DNA of 6,288 nucleotides from a virus. Its lineage: Duplodnaviria; Heunggongvirae; Uroviricota; Caudoviricetes. The notes beneath the pieces are model-generated. The model saw nothing but the letters and a program-made list of their open reading frames with translations. It did not search any database and was not told the origin of the DNA. Made by a program: the position numbers and the translations under genes. Shown here in pieces: positions 1 through 6,288 of this stretch; positions within the stretch are counted from its first letter, which is position 1, and the number at the start of each line of letters is the position of its first letter. The stretch is from IMG/VR virus record IMGVR_UViG_2695420699_000002, positions 1-6,288 of that record. One strand, written 5' to 3'.

Positions 1-2
1 CA

Positions 3-698
3 GCCTTCATCAGTGGTAAGGCACCGGAAATCAAACCCTCGCCCGGCGGCAACACGCCATCGGGGCCGTCTGAAGATGCATCCATACGCACAATCTCCCT
101 GATGCCGACAGCCGGAGATGCTGCTGCGCAGGGCTGGACCATTAAGGACGGCGGAATTCAGTTGTCAGATGGTGTATTTAAGATCACCAAGCAGAGCAAT
201 AAAACCTGGTCCCTGACGCATCCGGTGGATGACGCAATTACCCTGCTGACACAGGGCGGCAGACTGACCTGTAAGTTCCGCCTGTCAGGCGCACTGACCA
301 ACAATCAGTTCGGTCTGGGAATTTATCTGTATACCGATGTAGCGTTACCTGACGTCGTGGCGATGACCGGGACTGGTAACCCGTTCCTGATGTCGTTCTT
401 CACCCAGACCACAGACGGCAAACTGAATCTGATGCATCACAAGAAAGCAGGAAACACAAAGTTGGGCGAGTTCGGGAATTACAGTAACGACTGGCAGACG
501 CTGGAGCTGGTGTTCACCGCCAGCAGTGCCACGGTTACTCCGAAACTGAATGGAGTGGCTGGCCCGGCATTCCAGGTCATAAAAGACAGTCTGACACTGG
601 GGCTGAATGCACTGACGCTGACGGATATTACCAAAAATGCAACGTATGGCGTTGAGATAGAAAGTCTGGTGCTGGAAATAAATAGTCCTGCAGCGTAA
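3..698 (+). CDS. Hypothetical protein, 5'-partial (C-terminal beta-rich domain after a Pro/Ser/Gly-rich linker); possible accessory/moron gene upstream of R
   Basis: Frame 3 is open from position 3 to TAA at 696-698 with no stop, so the gene probably starts upstream of the window. The ATG at 102 has no Shine-Dalgarno upstream and is probably internal. Residues before it (KAPEIKPSPGGNTPSGPSED) look like an interdomain linker. The downstream sequence is rich in T/S/G/N/L with alternating hydrophobic patterns, typical of a beta-sandwich, but I recognise no family. Hand-counted GC is roughly 45-52 percent versus about 58 percent for R-I. Confidence 0.55.
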   Translation, partial: AFISGKAPEIKPSPGGNTPSGPSEDASIRTISLMPTAGDAAAQGWTIKDGGIQLSDGVFKITKQSNKTWSLTHPVDDAITLLTQGGRLTCKFRLSGALTNNQFGLGIYLYTDVALPDVVAMTGTGNPFLMSFFTQTTDGKLNLMHHKKAGNTKLGEFGNYSNDWQTLELVFTASSATVTPKLNGVAGPAFQVIKDSLTLGLNALTLTDITKNATYGVEIESLVLEINSPAA

Positions 699-721
699 GG
701 AAGAACAGGAGAGCAAAACAG

Positions 722-1189
722 ATGCTTAAGACAAACAGCCTCCGGAAGGGCATGATTCATGGGTGTCGCTGGTGTCAGGCCAACCCGGAAAAATTCACCA
801 TTTTCGTGGAGAGCGGCAACATTGAAACGACCGGAGAAACGCCCTCGTTTGTTTACCGCTATCAGATGGTGATGTTTGTCATGGATTACGCCGGGGAGCT
901 GGACGACCTCACGCTGCCGCTACTGGCGTGGTTATCCGAAAATCAGCCGCAATTGTTGCTTAATCCGGAGCGTAATCAGGACATCAAATTCTCCGCCGTT
1001 ATCAATGACGATGACAGCGCCGATCTCCTGTTTACGCTCCCTCTGCGGGAACGCGTTCGCATCACGCGCAGCAGTCAGGGGGCACCGCAGGCAGAACACC
1101 TGCAGGAGCCAAAACCCCGTCTGCCATCTTCCGAAGGCGACTGGTCGCATGTATTCCAGGATGTGACGTGGGGTGAAAGCGATGGATAA
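722..1189 (+). CDS. R: Phage tail completion protein R (P2 gpR-like)
   Basis: 155 aa ORF, the same size as P2 gpR, with a similar N-terminus (MLK..SLR) and sitting immediately upstream of S-V-W-J-I-H. AGGAG at 707-711 precedes ATG 722. Stop TAA 1187-1189 overlaps the S start (ATGGATAA). Confidence 0.75.
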   Translation: MLKTNSLRKGMIHGCRWCQANPEKFTIFVESGNIETTGETPSFVYRYQMVMFVMDYAGELDDLTLPLLAWLSENQPQLLLNPERNQDIKFSAVINDDDSADLLFTLPLRERVRITRSSQGAPQAEHLQEPKPRLPSSEGDWSHVFQDVTWGESDG

Positions 1190-1817
1190 GGCATTCACCC
1201 GCGTGGATGAAACCTTTGAGGCTATCCGCGACAGCCTGAATCAGCAGGCCATCAATAACATCGCCAGAAAGCTGGCACAGGATTTACGCCGCGCCCAGCA
1301 GGCGCGTATCCGGTCACAGAAAGCGCCGGACGGGACCGCGTGGACACCACGCAGACGCCGCGTAACCCGGATACAGGAGCGCATTCGCTTTATCTGGAAT
1401 AACGAAGCACGCACGCTGAAAAACTGGCATCACGACACGGGGAAATACGGGCGAACCATTACCGGGTGGGATGAGGATAAAAACAATATCCGCACGTTTT
1501 ACCGGGATGACATCGACCGCTTTCTGGAAATACGCACCCGGCGCATCAACCAGGACAGCACAAAGCGCGTCCCCATGTTCGTAAAACTGCGCACCGCCCG
1601 CTACCTGAAAGCCCGTGCAGATGCTTCCGGTGTGACGGTGGGTTACAGCGGCGTGGCCGCACGTATTGCCCGCGTTCATCAGTTCGGTGAGCGCGATCAG
1701 GTTGCGCCGGGCATTTTCACCGATTACCCGGTACGTGAGCTGTTGGGCATCAGTCAGGCAGATGAACGCCTGATTTATAACACGGTGCTGGGCCGGATTG
1801 CGGAGGCTGTACGGTGA
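1182..1817 (+). CDS. S: Phage virion morphogenesis / tail completion protein S (P2 gpS-like)
   Basis: Contains motifs remembered from the gpS family (QKAPDGTAWTPRRR; ARIARVHQFG). ATG 1182 is preceded by GGGGTGA and overlaps the R stop; an alternative GTG start at 1173 is in the same frame. Stop TGA 1815-1817 overlaps the V GTG start. Confidence 0.8.
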   Translation: MDKAFTRVDETFEAIRDSLNQQAINNIARKLAQDLRRAQQARIRSQKAPDGTAWTPRRRRVTRIQERIRFIWNNEARTLKNWHHDTGKYGRTITGWDEDKNNIRTFYRDDIDRFLEIRTRRINQDSTKRVPMFVKLRTARYLKARADASGVTVGYSGVAARIARVHQFGERDQVAPGIFTDYPVRELLGISQADERLIYNTVLGRIAEAVR

Positions 1818-2395
1818 GCGCAGAACTCATGCGACTGCTGAGCAACATCATCCGCACTGGGATCATCTCTGAAGTTGATGAGAAGTCCTGGTGCGTGCGC
1901 GTTCGCAGCGGCGAACTGGAAACAGGCTGGTTGCGCTGGAACACCACGCGCGCGGGAGCCTTCAATGTGTGGCTGCCGCCATCACCCGGCGAACAGGTGG
2001 TAATTGCCTGCATTGGCGGCAACCCGGAAACCGCCATGATAATTGGCAGCCTGTGGAGTGATGCCAATCCGGCCCCCGGCAAAAGCCTGAAAGAAATCGT
2101 GGTCAGCGCGCCGGATGGCGCGGTGTTCCGCTACGACGCGGACGCAGGCGCACTGAGCGCCAGCGGCATGAAAACGGCCACCCTGCAGGCATCCGTCAGT
2201 GTGACACTGGACACGCCCGTCGTGGAATGCACAGACCTTCTGAGAACGGCGACGCTTGACGTCACAAAAGGGGGAAAGATGAGCGGCAATATCACGCACA
2301 GCGGCGGCAATTTCACCTCAAACGGCATCACAGTGCATACGCATAAACACGGTGGCGTGAAAGGTGGCAGCGATTCGACAGGAGGCCCGCAGTGA
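1814..2395 (+). CDS. V: Baseplate assembly protein V / central spike (P2 gpV-like)
   Basis: GTG start with GGAGG at 1802-1806 (7 nt spacing). N-terminal IRTGII motif, GEQV, and C-terminal HTHKHGG (2336-2350) match the conserved iron-binding HxH apex of gpV-type spikes. Stop TGA 2393-2395 overlaps the W start. Confidence 0.9.
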   Translation: MSAELMRLLSNIIRTGIISEVDEKSWCVRVRSGELETGWLRWNTTRAGAFNVWLPPSPGEQVVIACIGGNPETAMIIGSLWSDANPAPGKSLKEIVVSAPDGAVFRYDADAGALSASGMKTATLQASVSVTLDTPVVECTDLLRTATLDVTKGGKMSGNITHSGGNFTSNGITVHTHKHGGVKGGSDSTGGPQ

Positions 2396-2742
2396 CAACC
2401 CGCTACACAGGAATGAACCCGGACGGAACGGGAAACCTGAACGATATGGAGCATCTGAAACAGTCAGTCAGGGACATCCTGACCACCCCGCTGGCAAGCC
2501 GGGTTATGCGACGGGAATATGGCAGCCTTGTGCCCGATTTAATTGACGAACCCATGAATAACACCACTCGTCTGCAATGCATGAGTGCTGCCGTGATTGC
2601 GCTGACACGATGGGAACCCCGCATTGCCCTGGACGCCATCGACGTTGTCTGGAAGGCAGGAGGCCGCGCCGGGGTGACGCTGTCGGGCACTGTCATGCAG
2701 ACCATGCAGAATGTTGAATTAACCATCACGCTGAGGGAGTAA
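2392..2742 (+). CDS. W: Baseplate wedge protein W (GPW/gp25 family)
   Basis: 116 aa (P2 gpW is about 115 aa). N-terminus MTTRYTGMN resembles P2 gpW MTARYLGMN, and the RVMRREYGSL motif is present. GTG start 2392 with GGAGG at 2381-2385. Confidence 0.9.
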   Translation: MTTRYTGMNPDGTGNLNDMEHLKQSVRDILTTPLASRVMRREYGSLVPDLIDEPMNNTTRLQCMSAAVIALTRWEPRIALDAIDVVWKAGGRAGVTLSGTVMQTMQNVELTITLRE

Positions 2743-2745
2743 ATC

Positions 2746-3642
2746 ATGCCTGCCGTTGACCTTTCCCAGTTACCGGAACCCGCCATCATCGCGGAGCCTG
2801 ACTTTGAGGCAATTCTGGCTGACACAAAGGCCATGATGATTGCGTCCTATCCTGTCGAACAGCGTGAAGCCGTCTCCGCCGCGCTGGAGCTGGAATCGGA
2901 ACCCCTGAACGTTATCGCCCAGACAACAGCGTTTCGTGAAATGCTGTTACGCCAGCGGGTCAATGAGGGGGCACGCGCCTGCATGTTAAGCCACAGCGCC
3001 GGGACAGACCTGGACAACCTCGCGGGCAATATGAACACAAAGCGCCTGACCATCACTCCGGCAACGGATACCACCGACGCAGTGATGGAAAGTGACACCT
3101 CGCTGAGACTGCGGGCGCAGCGGGCGTACGATGGCCTGAGTGTTGCTGGCCCGTCAGGTGCATACGAGTATTTTGCCCGCAGCGCCAGCGGTCTGGTGCG
3201 TGATGCGCGGGCTATCAGTCCGTCTCCGGCAAATGTGACGGTTTCCATCCTGTCCACTGAAGGCGACGGCACAGCAACGGAGGCGTTGCTTAATACCGTT
3301 CGCGCCGTTCTGAATGCAGAGGATACCCGCCCGGTGGCCGACCGCCTGACGGTACAGAGCGCCAGAATCGTGACATGGCGGCTGAATGCAAAACTGTACT
3401 TTTACCCCGGCCCGGAATCCGAACCTATTCTGGCGGCGGCTGAATCGTCGTTCAGGAAGTGGCTGGCTGAGCAGGGGCTTATCGGTCAGGACGTGGCGTT
3501 GTCCGCCATTGCTGCCGCACTGCATGTGCACGGTGTGCAACGCGTGGAGATAATCGAACCCACACAGAATATGGCCATCAGCGACATACAGGCGGCGCGC
3601 TGTGAGTCGTTCACCATCAGCGAAGGTGGGCGCAATGAGTAA
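2746..3642 (+). CDS. J: Baseplate protein J (P2 gpJ-like, Baseplate_J family)
   Basis: 298 aa (P2 gpJ is about 302 aa). Starts MPAVDLSQLPEP (P2: MPIIDLNQLPAP) with conserved stretches (ESEPL, RLTITPA, RPVADRLTVQSA, YFYPGPESEPI, GVQRVE). GGGAG at 2735-2739 precedes ATG 2746. Confidence 0.9.
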   Translation: MPAVDLSQLPEPAIIAEPDFEAILADTKAMMIASYPVEQREAVSAALELESEPLNVIAQTTAFREMLLRQRVNEGARACMLSHSAGTDLDNLAGNMNTKRLTITPATDTTDAVMESDTSLRLRAQRAYDGLSVAGPSGAYEYFARSASGLVRDARAISPSPANVTVSILSTEGDGTATEALLNTVRAVLNAEDTRPVADRLTVQSARIVTWRLNAKLYFYPGPESEPILAAAESSFRKWLAEQGLIGQDVALSAIAAALHVHGVQRVEIIEPTQNMAISDIQAARCESFTISEGGRNE

Positions 3643-4165
3643 TTCACTGTTACCACCATCAGCCAGCAGTTTCATGCGTTGTGCCGAAGCTGTCGGAACG
3701 CGCATTACAGACATCCCGGTAGACCTCAACACGCTGTGGTCGCCGGACACCTGCCCGGTGCACCTGCTGCCTTATCTCGCCTGGGCATTTTCCGTTGACC
3801 GCTGGGATCGCAACTGGCCGGAAGAGACAAAACGACAGGTGATTCGTGATGCATGGCTGATACACCGACACAAAGGGACCATCAGCGCACTGCGCAGGGC
3901 CATTGAGCCGCTGGGATACCTCATTCGCGTGTCTGAGTGGTGGGAGTTCGGCGGAGAACCGGGAACATTTACCGTTGAAGTCGGCACACTGGACAGTGGC
4001 GTGACGGAGGAAATGTATCTGGAAATGGAGCGGTTGATTGCTGATGCCCGTCCGGTCAGCCGCCACATGACAGGGCTGAATATCATTCAGGAAATTCCGG
4101 GGGATATTTTTGCAGCGGCGGCAACTCATGACGGTGAAGTTATTACCATTTATCCGGACGATTAA
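3635..4165 (+). CDS. I: Baseplate/tail protein I (P2 gpI-like)
   Basis: ATG 3635 overlaps the J stop (ATGAGTAA) and is preceded by AAGGTGG at 3623-3629. It gives 176 aa, matching P2 gpI length, with conserved motifs ([53 protein letters not shown]). The track ORF start at 3602 is in the same frame but lies inside J and lacks an RBS. Confidence 0.85.
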
Positions 4166-4167
4166 GC

Positions 4168-6210
4168 ATGAGTACCACAACACGAAAATTTAAAACCGTT
4201 ATCACCGATACAGGTGCAAAAAAATTAGCTCAGGCAGCCGCGCCAGATGGTAAGCCTGTCCGCCTGACTCATATGGCCGTGGGCGACGGTGGCGGCGCGT
4301 TGCCCACACCAGACAGTAAGCAGACCCGTCTGGTGCATGAGGTGTGGCGACACACTGTTAATCGCGTCATCCTGGACGCAACACATCAGAACCGCATTAT
4401 TGCGGAGCTGGTTATTCCTCCAGAAACGGGCGGATTCTGGATCCGGGAAATTGGTGTGTTTGATGAGCACGGCGATTTAATCGCGGTGGGCAATACTGCC
4501 GAAAGTTACAAGCCAGCCGTTGCCGAAGGGTCCGGACGTGCACAAACATTTCGCACCATTCTGACCGTATCCAGCACTGCCACTGTGGCGCTTACCGTGG
4601 ATAACACCATGGTGATGGCCACAGTGGATTACGTGGATAACAAACTGAAAGAGCATGAACAGTCACGATGTCACCCGGATGCCTCGCTGACCGCAAAAGG
4701 CTTTGTTCAACTCAGTAGCGCCACTAACAGCGATTCTGAAACGCTGGCTGCAACGCCGAAAGCGGTTAAGGTCGCGTATGATCTTGCTAACGGAAAATAT
4801 ACAGCGCAGGATGCCACAACAGCGCGAAAAGGCCTTGTCCAGCTTAGTAGTGCAACCAACAGTACATCTGAAACGCTGGCGGCAACATCAAATGCAGTAA
4901 AAGCTGCCTATGACAATGCTGAAAAACGTCTGCAGAAAGCTAAGAATGGTGAGGATATCTCTGATAAAGACACCTTTACGAAAAATATCGGTGCCTGCCG
5001 TGCATATAGTGCAGAGCTGAATATTGGTGGAGATAGTGAAGCATGGACAACTGCGCAGTTGATTTTTTGGCTAGAGAGTCAGGGGGCATTTAACCATCCT
5101 TACTGGATGTGCAAAGGCTCATGGGCTTATGCAAATAATAAGGTCATTACAGATACAGGTTGCGGAAGTATTTGTCTTGCAGGTGCTGTTGTGGAAGTTA
5201 TTGGCACCCGCGGCGCAATGACCATACGCATTACCACACCGAGTACATCCAGCGGTGAAGGCATCCCTAATGCTCAATTTACTTATATTAATCATGGTGA
5301 TGCTTATGCTCCTGGCTGGCGAAGGGACTATAACTCCAGGAATAAGCCAACAGCATCAGAGATCGGGGCGTTACCGTCAGATGGGACAGCAGTATCGTCA
5401 GTTAATCTGGCTTCAAAAGGTCGGCTGACCGCCCTGACAGATAATATGCAGGGGGCCACAGGTCTGGAGTTATACGAGGCGTATAACAACGGATATCCAA
5501 CAACGTATGGAAATATCATTCACCTGAAAGGGATGACAGCCGTTGGCGAAGGCGAATTACTCATCGGCTGGAGTGGTATAAGCGGTGCTCATGCTCCGGC
5601 ATTTATTCGTTCACGACGGGATACGACCGACGCAAACTGGTCGCCGTGGGCGCAGCTTTACACCTCGGCTCATCCTCCTGAAGAGTTTTATCCAGTCGGT
5701 GCACCGATTCCGTGGCCATCAGATACCGTTCCGTCTGGTTATGCCCTGATGCAGGGGCAGACTTTTGACAAATCTGCATACCCGAAACTTGCAGTCGCTT
5801 ATCCGTCAGGCGTTATTCCTGATATGCGTGGCTGGACGATTAAGGGCAAGCCCGGCAGTGGTCGTGCCGTATTGTCTCAGGAACAGGACGGCATTAAATC
5901 GCACACCCACAGCGCCAGCGCATCCAGTACGGATTTGGGGACGAAAACCACATCGTCGTTTGATTACGGTACTAAAACGACCAGTTCATTTGATTACGGC
6001 ACAAAAACTACGAATAGCGCTGGAAATCATTCACACAATATACCTGTTGGTCACACTGGCGCGGGGAATGGTGTATCAGCCGGTTATAACGCTGCGTTAG
6101 GTACTGGTACCACGTCGAGCGCAGGCGAGCATGCTCACAATGTATATATCGGTGCCCATAACCACACTATCGGCATTGGTGCTCATGCCCATTCTGTCAT
6201 TATTGGTCCC
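4168..6210 (+). CDS. H: Tail fiber protein H (P2 gpH-like), 3' end interrupted by IS insertion; reading frame runs on into the IS with no stop inside the window
   Basis: ATG 4168 lies 2 nt after the I stop. The N-terminus ([19 protein letters not shown]...MAVGDGGG...HEVWR...[34 protein letters not shown]) matches the conserved baseplate-attachment domain of P2 gpH. Further down are two copies of the tail-fiber repeat motif, a tail-collar-like segment ([10 protein letters not shown]...YPKL...IPDMRGW) and an HxH array. Frame 1 has no stop from 4168 to the window end; native sequence ends at 6210 where the IS terminal repeat begins. Confidence 0.85.
4696..4914 (+). repeat. Two in-frame copies of the phage tail-fiber repeat motif (about 87 bp each, 132 bp period) within H
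   Basis: Copy 1 from 4696 ([29 protein letters not shown]) and copy 2 from 4828 ([29 protein letters not shown]). The nucleotide copies differ at several synonymous positions. Confidence 0.75.
5941..6018 (+). repeat. 30-bp tandem repeat (about 2.6 copies) encoding the decapeptide (G)TKTTSSFDY within H
   Basis: 5941-5970 acgaaaaccacatcgtcgtttgattacggt; 5971-6000 actaaaacgaccagttcatttgattacggc; 6001-6018 partial third copy. Copies differ mainly at synonymous sites (tcgtcg versus agttca for Ser-Ser). Confidence 0.75.
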
Positions 6211-6288
6211 TGGATTTGCCCCTATATTTCCAGACACCTGTTATCACTTAACCCATTACTGGCTTGCTGCCGTAGATATTCCCGTGGC
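6211..6288 (-). mobile_element. Partial IS2-like insertion sequence (IS3 family): terminal inverted repeat and adjacent transposase 3' end, extending beyond the window
   Basis: From 6211 the sequence TGGATTTGCCCCTATATTTCCAGACACCTGTTATCACTTAACCCATTAC... closely matches, from memory, the reverse complement of the IS2 right end (TGGATTTGCCCCTATATTTCCAGACATCTGTTATCACTTAACC...), with a few mismatches. It abruptly replaces tail-fiber coding sequence. Confidence 0.75.
6222..6288 (-). CDS. IS2-like transposase OrfB (InsD-like), C-terminal fragment; 5' part lies outside the window
   Basis: The - strand translation ends ...[21 protein letters not shown] with stop TAG (complement of 6222-6224), closely resembling the remembered IS2 InsD C-terminus ...[22 protein letters not shown]. 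Confidence 0.65.

What the first reader, a model, noticed from the sequence alone, without database searches (positions are those of the whole stretch)
4900..6210. Compositional break inside H suggests a mosaic tail fiber with a horizontally exchanged distal module
The H N-terminal region (4168 to about 4620) is recognisably P2 gpH-like and GC-rich like the baseplate genes. After the two repeat motifs (ending about 4914), hand counts over 4921-5340 give roughly 40-53 percent GC per 60-nt line, versus about 55-75 percent in V-J. This distal part carries different domain content: a Cys-containing segment, a tail-collar-like motif and an HxH array reminiscent of T4 gp37-type tips. Exchange of fiber distal modules at conserved repeat boundaries is a known route of host-range switching.
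Basis: partly seen in the sequence, partly recalled or inferred. Interest (0 to 1): 0.45.

Follow-up and report, generated by a model that had tools for sequence, protein, structure and literature searches.

The report
Mosaic P2-type tail fibre gene
The drop in GC content inside this prophage tail-fibre gene is real and marks a well-known kind of patchwork, in which a fixed baseplate-binding front end is joined to host-recognition modules shared with unrelated phages (Mu, lambda-like, P1-like, T4); in this copy an insertion sequence has also cut off the end of the gene.

Summary
Window 4921-5340 is 45.5% GC, against 58.5 ± 1.8% for every 420-nt window in genes R-I (z = -7.3). Third-codon-position GC falls from 0.66 to 0.36.

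- The window is a P88-like (Xuanwuvirus, P2-family) E. coli prophage.
- It is collinear with phage P88 at 96% from R to H codon 251, which is the end of the second Phage_fiber_2 repeat (nt 4920). The identity gradients cross inside the repeats.
- Nt 4943-5334 is 88% identical to the Mu/P88 S' invertible-arm module (PDB 8JU3).
- Nt 4705-5976 is 86% identical to lambdoid side tail fibres.
- From nt 5689 the gene is 98.8% identical to the P1-like plasmid fibre gene S.
- Residues 507-710 are a true T4 gp37-type collar plus HxH needle (PDB 2XGF, E = 8e-78).

The backbone occurs in 725 complete E. coli genomes, this H allele in 182, and its tip in 213, including 64 plasmid copies.

Two corrections to the finding. 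The GC decline starts upstream of the junction. H does not end at 6210: nt 6211-6288 is an IS3-family end that removes the last 29 codons.

Mosaic tail fibres are textbook knowledge, so interest is low.

The parts
4168..6210 (+). Tail fibre gene H, codons 1-681. It is truncated: the intact allele has 710 codons.
   Evidence: open frame with no stop in the window; 100% identical to E. coli SCU-105 over 1-6210, where H is 710 aa (WP_032276832.1).
4168..4626 (+). Constant N-terminal domain of the P2 gpH type (aa 1-153). It belongs to the P88-like backbone.
   Evidence: PF12571, E = 6.5e-54; 94% to P88-like phages, 72.8% to P2 H; 97-100% DNA identity to P88.
4696..4788 (+). Phage_fiber_2 repeat 1 (aa 177-207, [31 protein letters not shown]). 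Homology to lambdoid Stf begins here.
   Evidence: PF03406; direct repeat. Stf alignments start at 4705; identity to P88 drops from about 98% to about 90% here.
4828..4920 (+). Phage_fiber_2 repeat 2 (aa 221-251). This is the crossover zone, and collinear homology to P88 ends at 4920.
   Evidence: window 764-4920 equals P88 at 96.4%; identity to P88 falls to about 80% and then to background after 4915, while identity to Stf rises to 87-97%.
4921..5334 (+). Module B (aa 252-389): a Cys-containing shaft module of the Mu S' / P88 alternative-arm type. It is the GC trough (0.452, GC3 0.362).
   Evidence: nt 4943-5334 is 88% identical to the P88 inverted arm and 87.5% to Mu Sv'. PDB 8JU3, aa 249-408, domain E = 4.8e-81. 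GC.
5335..5685 (+). Module C/D (aa 390-506): a shaft segment of the lambdoid Stf type, with no Pfam or PDB match by sequence.
   Evidence: 86% to lambdoid Stf (L003, L004); 95.8% to the K-12 Qin stfQ remnant from 5429; tail-fibre PHROGs only; no PDB match.
5686..5976 (+). Collar domain, first HxH and start of the [10 protein letters not shown] repeats (aa 507-603). This is the most widely shared block.
   Evidence: PF07484; about 95% to stfR/stfQ-type genes; this block is the commonest kind of partial match among the 4036 genomes hit; 69% DNA identity to T4 gene 37. PDB 2XGF.
5977..6163 (+). Hypervariable needle and tip (aa 604-665). It aligns with the T4 gp37 stem and receptor-contacting tip subdomain, and is the presumed specificity determinant.
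   Evidence: homology to Stf is lost between 5976 and 6164; near-identical only in P88-like prophages and P1-like plasmids (213 genomes). alignment, with T4 tip residues 932-959 taken from PMC6957217.
6164..6210 (+). Conserved returning strand of the HxH needle ([19 protein letters not shown]), cut off after codon 681.
   Evidence: homology to Stf resumes at L001 12164; aligned to T4 gp37. HxH positions.
6211..6288 (.). Terminal 78 nt of an IS3-family insertion sequence. It replaces the last 29 codons of H, and G (tfa) no longer follows H directly as it does in the intact allele.
   Evidence: thousands of matches annotated as IS3 family transposase; 100% identical to the element end in E. coli strain 9, and divergent from intact H from 6211 on.

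Best explanation
Gene H of a P88-like (P2-family) E. coli prophage is a recombinant mosaic.

The front end is inherited with the baseplate genes. It comprises codons 1-176 (the N-terminal domain proper spans aa 1-153) and it anchors the trimeric fibre to the baseplate. Two conserved Phage_fiber_2 repeats follow (codons 177-251). These repeats are shared by P2-type H, Mu/P1 S and lambdoid Stf genes, and they acted as the homology patch for recombination.

Everything distal comes from the common pool of enterobacterial fibre modules:
- a Mu S'-type shaft module;
- a lambdoid Stf-type shaft segment;
- a T4 gp37 / lambda Stf-type receptor-binding end. This end has a collar, a needle with His-x-His motifs that probably bind metal, and a hypervariable tip.

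The receptor-binding end travels together with its Tfa chaperone gene. It is almost identical in P1-like plasmid prophages of the same EHEC lineages.

These modules circulate among phages of about 46-50% GC, so they stand out against the 58% GC backbone. Swapping them changes host range.

In this copy an IS3-family element has removed the last HxH motif and the C-terminal 29 residues. In the intact allele the chaperone gene G follows H directly; here the IS lies there instead. The fibre encoded here is therefore probably non-functional.

Shown: the composition, the homologies, the breakpoints and the IS junction. Inferred: recombination as the mechanism, metal binding, the role in host range and the loss of function.
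For: Composition: (GC 0.455 against 0.585 ± 0.018; GC3 0.36 against 0.66).

Backbone: the window is 96.4% collinear with phage P88 from 764 to 4920. The N-terminal 255 aa are closest to Xuanwuvirus phages.

Distal part: it is closest to lambdoid Stf, P7/P1 Sv and Gifsy/Fels-1. Nt 4943-5334 is 88% identical to the Mu/P88 S' arm (PDB 8JU3). Nt 4705-5976 is 86% identical to Stf. From 5689 onward the match is 98.8% to the P1-like plasmid pE2855-2 and 98.5% (amino acids) to a Punavirus S gene. That homology continues through tfa and an acetyltransferase.

T4 gp37 tip: E = 8e-78 and 66% identity.

Crossover: the identity gradients cross within the repeats.

Population: the backbone is in 725 genomes, this H in 182, and the tip in 213 genomes with 64 plasmid copies.

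Generality: P88's own distal H is also low in GC, 0.48 against 0.578 for its backbone.

Chaperone: Caudo_TAP / PHROG 105.

IS.

Literature: fibre genes are recombination hot spots, citing Haggård-Ljungquist 1992 and Sandmeier (PMC8986868). Engineered P2 gpH / gp37 chimeras retarget P2 (PMC9594776). The P88 fibre C-terminus sets host range (PMC5285337).
Against: - The GC decline starts about 800 nt upstream of the homology junction (change point 4077), so composition and recombination boundary do not coincide exactly.
- No donor with near-100% identity was found for 4921-5688 (best 86-88%). That part of the exchange is therefore old, or its donor is unsampled.
- Neither the direction of transfer nor the number of events can be read from these data.
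- No formal recombination test (GARD, RDP) was run.
- Receptor, metal binding and loss of function are untested inferences.
Confidence: 0.9

Rival explanations
1. The distal part is a 'frozen' arm of a Mu/P88-type invertible G segment. On this view it was joined to the constant part by invertase-mediated site-specific recombination, and the second arm and the invertase were lost later.
For: P88 and JJ2434-type relatives carry H-G-G'-S'-invertase with gix sites. Window 4943-5334 is 88% identical to the S' arm of P88 and 87.5% to that of Mu, starting about 25 nt after the position of their gix site. P7/P1 Sv arms match aa 256-500.
Against: No gix-like site occurs in the window or in 18 kb of the intact prophage above chance: the best match is 17/28, and shuffled sequences reach 15-19. 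In P88 the gix site lies at H codon ~420, not at codon 251. The junction here falls in the Phage_fiber_2 repeat, with a graded identity profile typical of homologous exchange. There is no invertase and no second arm in L001. Homology to S' ends at 5334, and the rest is Stf/P1-like.
Confidence: 0.07
2. The GC drop reflects amino-acid composition or local selection in a vertically inherited, fast-evolving fibre gene. On this view there was no horizontal exchange.
For: The GC decline begins inside the backbone (gene I end and H N-terminus). Fibre proteins are rich in Ser/Thr/Asn/Gly.
Against: The drop is concentrated at third codon positions while GC2 is flat. Distal segments are 86-99% identical at the DNA level to genes of lambdoid, Mu-like and P1-like elements, while sister P88-like prophages with 94-98% identical backbones carry unrelated distal parts.
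Confidence: 0.02
3. The apparent mosaic is an assembly chimera or an artefact of the window.
For: The window does end in foreign DNA (the IS).
Against: The same H sequence (≥98%) is found in 182 complete genomes from independent projects.
Confidence: 0.01

Closest known systems
Tail fibre gpH of phage P2 and gp39 of phage P88 (Peduoviridae, Xuanwuvirus)
   Same: Same gene position after V-W-J-I. Same PF12571 N-terminal domain and PF03406 repeats. 94% (P88) and 72.8% (P2) identity over aa 1-254. A tail-fibre assembly gene lies downstream in the intact allele.
   Different: From codon 252 on it is unrelated to the main H reading frame of P88 and only distantly related to P2 H. P88 has three repeats and a Mu-like invertible segment with an invertase, which this lineage lacks.
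Receptor-binding tip of the T4 long tail fibre protein gp37 (PDB 2XGF) and the homologous C-terminus of lambda Stf
   Same: Collar domain, repeated HxH motifs and a conserved C-terminal ...[15 protein letters not shown]. E = 8e-78, with 66% identity to T4 and 64% to lambda. A Tfa/gp38-type chaperone gene follows.
   Different: Six HxH motifs instead of seven (five in the truncated window allele). One extra [10 protein letters not shown] copy. The segment aligned to T4's receptor-contacting tip subdomain (932-959) is shorter and poorly conserved, so the receptor need not be OmpC or LPS glucose.
Mu tail fibre S' (G(-) orientation; PDB 8JU3) and the Sv arms of P1/P7
   Same: Aa 249-408 match the first part of the Mu S' variable region with a domain E-value of 4.8e-81 and few substitutions in the printed alignment, including all four Cys residues. 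DNA identity is 87.5%.
   Different: There is no gix site, no invertase and no alternative arm. The S' receptor-binding C-terminus is replaced by Stf/gp37-type modules after nt 5334.
S-tfa-acetyltransferase region of P1-like phage-plasmids (Punavirus vB_EcoM-Ro157c2YLVW; pE2855-2)
   Same: 94-95% DNA identity from H codon ~508 through tfa and the hexapeptide acetyltransferase, and 98.8% within the window.
   Different: The proximal 75% of the P1-like S gene and the rest of the element are unrelated to the P88-like prophage.

Membership tests
P2 gpH-type tail fibre (Peduoviridae) | N-terminal tail-collar fibre domain (PF12571) | tested here: met
   aa 6-153, E = 6.5e-54, full profile coverage.
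P2 gpH-type tail fibre (Peduoviridae) | Position directly downstream of the baseplate genes V, W, J and I | tested here: met
   Pfam matches for R, S, V, W, J, I; annotation of the intact prophage.
P2 gpH-type tail fibre (Peduoviridae) | Followed by a tail-fibre assembly (G/Tfa) gene | tested here: inconclusive
   Present in the intact allele (L001 12300-12878; Caudo_TAP E = 1.2e-39). In the window the IS lies where G should follow, and the far side of the IS is not available.
T4 gp37 / lambda Stf-type receptor-binding tip | Collar domain (PF07484) | tested here: met
   aa 511-558, E = 2.9e-11; aligned to the 2XGF collar.
T4 gp37 / lambda Stf-type receptor-binding tip | Array of His-x-His motifs forming the needle | tested here: met
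   HxH at 579, 621, 655, 664, 673 and 682 in the intact allele (T4 has 7). The window allele keeps 5.
T4 gp37 / lambda Stf-type receptor-binding tip | Conserved C-terminal strand (...GHTITVN...[11 protein letters not shown]) that completes the trimer | tested here: not met
   It is present in the intact allele. In the window it is replaced from nt 6211 by IS sequence. The window allele is therefore a truncated member.
T4 gp37 / lambda Stf-type receptor-binding tip | Metal (Fe2+) coordination by the HxH motifs; binding of OmpC or LPS | not testable with these tools
   Iron coordination is known for T4 gp37 from my own knowledge of Bartual et al. 2010 (paper not held). T4 receptor data come from PMC6957217.
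Invertible tail-fibre segment (Mu G / P1 C / p15B Min type) | Pair of inverted gix/cix crossover sites | tested here: not met
   the best match in the window and in L001 is 17/28, within the range of shuffled sequences. The sites are found readily in Mu (28/28) and P88 (26-27/28).
Invertible tail-fibre segment (Mu G / P1 C / p15B Min type) | Adjacent serine invertase gene and a second, inverted S'/U' arm | tested here: not met
   in the intact prophage, H-G is followed by an acetyltransferase and then gene U. Compare P88 and JJ2434, which have both features.
IS3-family insertion sequence | Terminal sequence identical to a known element that carries an IS3-family transposase with a programmed frameshift | tested here: met
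   78/78 nt identical to the element end in E. coli strain 9.
IS3-family insertion sequence | Target-site duplication and the second inverted repeat | not testable with these tools
   The window ends 78 nt into the element. The exact junction is absent from the complete E. coli genomes and from genome contigs.

The most novel reading that the evidence does not exclude
The distal end of H, its Tfa chaperone and the adjacent low-GC hexapeptide acetyltransferase may form one mobile unit. This unit would move between P1-like plasmid prophages and P88-like chromosomal prophages within EHEC O26/O103/O111 lineages. The acetyltransferase would modify the surface polysaccharide receptor that this same fibre tip recognises, so that host range and superinfection exclusion are transferred together. 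The IS insertion in this window would then be one route by which such a prophage loses its own adsorption function.
Probability: 0.12. Interest if true: 0.45.

Novelty: already known. Interest (0 to 1): 0.15.

Why it matters
It matters little beyond annotation.

It is a clear, well-resolved example of the modular exchange of phage receptor-binding proteins, which has been known since the early 1990s. A P2-family baseplate adaptor is fused through conserved repeats to Mu-, lambda-, P1- and T4-type distal modules.

Practical points:
- It shows where natural fusion points lie (the Phage_fiber_2 repeats and the start of the collar) for engineering P2/P88-type particles or tailocins.
- It shows that P88-like prophages and P1-like plasmids in EHEC O26/O103/O111 strains carry the same fibre tip.
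- It warns that this window's copy is IS-disrupted and should be annotated as a pseudogene.

Tried and rejected
- I searched for a gix/cix crossover site at the junction, prompted by the S'-arm homology. Nothing rose above chance, so the 'frozen inversion' idea was demoted. A possible relic in the DTFTKNIG coding sequence matched only 13/28.
- The apparent breakpoint at nt 5423-5428 (K-12 Qin match) is the deletion end of the stfQ pseudogene next to nohA, not a module boundary.
- The apparent extension of IS matches to nt 6197 is a chance similarity of 14 flanking bases.
- Tandem Repeats Finder found nothing in H. The [10 protein letters not shown] duplication is too short and too diverged at synonymous sites.
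- An exact search for the H::IS junction in genome contigs found nothing, and no complete E. coli genome holds it. The source strain and the far side of the IS remain unknown.
- The GC3 value printed for module B was computed out of frame and should be ignored.
- The primary papers (Bartual 2010, Haggård-Ljungquist 1992) are not in the held library.
- Structure prediction and the large protein-database searches were not used, because solved structures and DNA-level matches already settled the question.
Full report
**What the window is.** The 6288-nt window is part of the late operon of a P2-family prophage of Escherichia coli. Pfam identifies R (722-1189), S (1173-1817), V (1814-2395), W (2392-2742), J (2746-3642), I (to 4165) and the tail fibre gene H, which starts at 4168. 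Nt 1-6210 is 100% identical to E. coli SCU-105 and 99.7-99.8% identical to many O26, O103 and O111 EHEC chromosomes. 187 complete genomes hold at least 80% of the window. The closest named phage is P88 (Peduoviridae, genus Xuanwuvirus), which is collinear with window 764-4920 at 96.4%.

**Check of the observation.** The GC trough is real.
- As a block, 4921-5340 is 0.455 GC. None of the 3026 overlapping 420-nt windows in R-I falls below 0.548 (mean 0.585, sd 0.018), giving z = -7.3 and binomial p = 4e-7.
- The change sits at synonymous sites. GC3 is 0.657 in R-I, 0.534 in H codons 1-176, 0.387 in the repeats, 0.362 in codons 252-389, about 0.49-0.51 in codons 390-603 and 0.385 in codons 604-681. 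GC2 stays near 0.5.
The best single change point is nt 4077, in gene I.
- The distal part is not uniformly low.

The domain statements also hold.
- PF12571 covers aa 6-153.
- There are two PF03406 repeats.
- The PF07484 collar covers aa 511-558.
- Cys residues lie at 277, 315, 332 and 336, and there is an HxH array.

**H does not end at 6210.** The frame has no stop in the window. All prophage matches stop at 6210. Nt 6211-6288 is 100% identical to the end of an IS3-family element. In intact alleles H is 710 aa and is followed directly by a Caudo_TAP-type tail fibre assembly gene. The insertion lies after codon 681. It removes [29 protein letters not shown], which includes the last HxH. If the element continues as in strain 9, a 28-residue IS-encoded tail is added (inference).

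**Do the two halves have different relatives?** Yes.
- By tblastn against 50,697 phage records, residues 1-255 are closest to P88-like phages (91-94%). P2-like Peduovirus phages follow at about 72%.
- Residues 256-710 are closest to lambdoid side tail fibres (PhiR29_1, mEp460 and others; 75-77%). Next come the Sv arms of the invertible C segments of P7/P1/D6 (67-77% over aa 256-500) and Gifsy-1/2 and Fels-1. No P88-like phage ranks near the top; only Escherichia phage Chuche reappears, for the last ~230 residues at 66.5%.
- In complete E. coli genomes the J-I-H(N) backbone occurs in 725 genomes, but this H allele in only 182.
- Sister prophages such as that of JJ2434 are 96% identical up to nt 4920 and then carry a different distal part.

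**Fine structure of the mosaic (window coordinates).**
1. Up to about 4710, identity to P88 is 97-100%.
2. 4696-4920 holds the two Phage_fiber_2 repeats (aa 177-207 and 221-251). Identity to P88 falls stepwise to about 90% and then about 80%, and vanishes after 4915. Identity to a lambdoid Stf (L004) rises from about 70% to 87-97%. Stf alignments begin at 4705 or 4808, which are the starts of the two repeats.
3. 4943-5334 is 88% identical to the alternative, inverted arm of P88 and 87.5% to Mu Sv'. At the protein level, aa 249-408 match the solved Mu S/S' fibre (8JU3) with a domain E-value of 4.8e-81. This is the 'Cys-containing segment' and the GC minimum.
4. 5335-5685 has only Stf-type relatives: 86% to lambdoid Stf, and 95.8% to the K-12 Qin stfQ remnant from 5429. 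The 5423-5428 'boundary' is merely the deletion end of that pseudogene.
5. 5686-5976 is the collar block. It is shared at about 95% with stfR/stfQ-type genes; it is the commonest kind of partial match among the 4036 genomes hit. It still aligns with T4 gene 37 at 69% DNA identity.
6. 5977-6163 is hypervariable. Homology to Stf is lost here. Near-identical copies occur only in P88-like prophages and in 87-101 kb P1-like plasmids: 213 genomes, with 209 chromosomal and 64 plasmid places.
7. From 6164 the conserved HxH strands resume.

From nt 5689 the sequence is 98.8% identical to plasmid pE2855-2 and 98.5% (amino acids) to the S gene of Punavirus vB_EcoM-Ro157c2YLVW. In the intact prophage this homology (94-95%) continues through tfa and a low-GC (0.35) hexapeptide acetyltransferase.

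**The T4 gp37 resemblance is true homology.** Residues 507-710 of the intact protein match the crystallised receptor-binding tip of T4 gp37 (2XGF) with E = 8e-78. Identity is 66% to T4 and 64% to lambda Stf. The intact allele has six HxH motifs and T4 has seven. In T4 these motifs coordinate iron in the needle; this rests on my own knowledge of Bartual et al. 2010, which is not in the held library. T4's receptor-contacting tip subdomain is residues 932-959 (PMC6957217). It aligns with H residues ~626-650, which are shorter and poorly conserved. The scaffold is therefore conserved while the specificity-determining loop differs.

**Relation to invertible segments.** P88 carries a Mu-like G segment with S, U, U', S' and an invertase. 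Its gix sites read TTATC(G/T)AA(T/A)ACCTCGGTTTACAGGAAAC and match the Mu gix 28-mer at 26 and 27 of 28 positions. The left site lies at H codon ~420. In the lineage of this window that whole 4.3-kb region is replaced by 2.7 kb, made up of distal H, tfa and the acetyltransferase. Homology to P88 resumes at gene U. No gix-like site exists in the window or in 18 kb of the intact prophage beyond chance (17/28 against 15-19 in shuffles). The fibre is therefore fixed, and site-specific inversion is not the likely origin of the junction.

**Why the GC differs.** The distal modules have similar, lower GC wherever they occur.
- Module B is 0.45 here, 0.49 in Mu and 0.49 in the P88 alternative arm.
- P88's own distal H is 0.48, against 0.578 for its backbone.
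- The T4 tip is 0.46 and tfa is 0.48.

The compositional step is thus a general signature of a 58% GC P88-type structural operon carrying fibre modules drawn from a pool shared among phages of about 46-50% GC. It flags the mosaic but does not locate the junction.

**Mechanism (shown and inferred).**
- Shown: the modular homologies, the breakpoints, co-inheritance of the tip with tfa, the population distribution and the IS truncation.
- Inferred from established knowledge of P2 H, Mu S, lambda Stf and T4 gp37: the N-terminal domain docks the trimer to the baseplate. The repeats and shaft modules space the tip. Tfa chaperones trimerisation starting at the C-terminus. The hypervariable tip binds the receptor. 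Homologous recombination between co-resident prophages at conserved patches exchanges the distal part and so changes host range.
- Supporting literature: PMC8986868 cites Haggård-Ljungquist 1992 and Sandmeier. PMC9594776 reports engineered gpH/gp37 chimeras. PMC5285337 shows that the P88 fibre C-terminus sets host range.
- The window's allele lacks the C-terminal strand, and the chaperone gene no longer follows H directly. It is probably non-functional (inference).

**Novelty and verdict.** Horizontal exchange of tail fibre modules among P2, Mu, P1, lambda and T-even phages is classical knowledge. This allele is already present, and annotated as a phage tail protein, in 182 complete genomes. 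Interest is low (0.15). The most novel reading not excluded concerns a tip-tfa-acetyltransferase cassette shared between P1-like plasmids and P88-like prophages (probability about 0.12).

Noticed in passing
window 6211-6288: This is the end of an IS3-family insertion sequence, 78/78 nt identical to an element in E. coli strain 9. It is inserted after H codon 681 and deletes the last HxH and the C-terminal 29 residues, so G (tfa) no longer follows H directly. From memory it resembles the right end of IS2. The exact junction was not found in any complete E. coli genome or in genome contigs.
   Followed up: partly
window 1-698 (full ORF: L001 4821-6698): The first ORF is the C-terminal 198 aa of a 625-aa protein with DUF1737, SASA (sialate 9-O-acetylesterase) and DUF6645 domains. 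From memory this is like the NanS-p esterases of Stx prophages. It sits between the lysis genes and R, has lower GC (0.49-0.52), is absent from phage P88 and is present in JJ2434-type prophages. It looks like an accessory ('moron') gene.
   Followed up: partly
window 5938-6018: An imperfect 30-nt tandem duplication encodes [10 protein letters not shown] twice plus a partial third copy. The copies are about 73% identical and differ mostly at synonymous sites. T4 gp37 has one copy fewer. Most megablast alignments to other fibre genes stop inside it (nt 5976). Tandem Repeats Finder does not report it.
   Followed up: partly
L001 11689-13486; L007 3998-5795; L011 4001-5798: The fibre tip, tfa and a low-GC (0.35) hexapeptide-repeat acetyltransferase form a block shared at 94-95% between the P88-like prophage and P1-like plasmids/phages. 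RefSeq annotates the enzyme as serine O-acetyltransferase, but it scores below every NCBIfam cut-off, and its best matches are polysaccharide acetyltransferases of the EpsC/WcaB type. The block occupies the place of P88's invertible segment and invertase.
   Followed up: partly
L002 5001-10003 (phage P88): P88 carries a Mu-like invertible G segment: S and S' arms, two assembly genes, an invertase, and gix sites that match the Mu gix 28-mer at 26 and 27 of 28 positions. The left site lies at H codon ~420, so P88 can presumably switch between two fibre tips as Mu does.
   Followed up: partly
L001 12922-18210; L002 10039-10762: In this phage group the tail sheath, tube, tape-measure and U genes lie on the strand opposite to V-W-J-I-H-G, converging on the fibre region. 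From memory, in P2 itself they follow H-G on the same strand.
   Followed up: no
window 3900-4700: GC and GC3 already decline in the 3' end of gene I and in the N-terminal domain of H (GC3 0.58 and 0.53, against 0.66-0.70 in V-J). This stretch is still 97-100% identical to P88. The cause is unexplained; it could be an older exchange or a different constraint.
   Followed up: no
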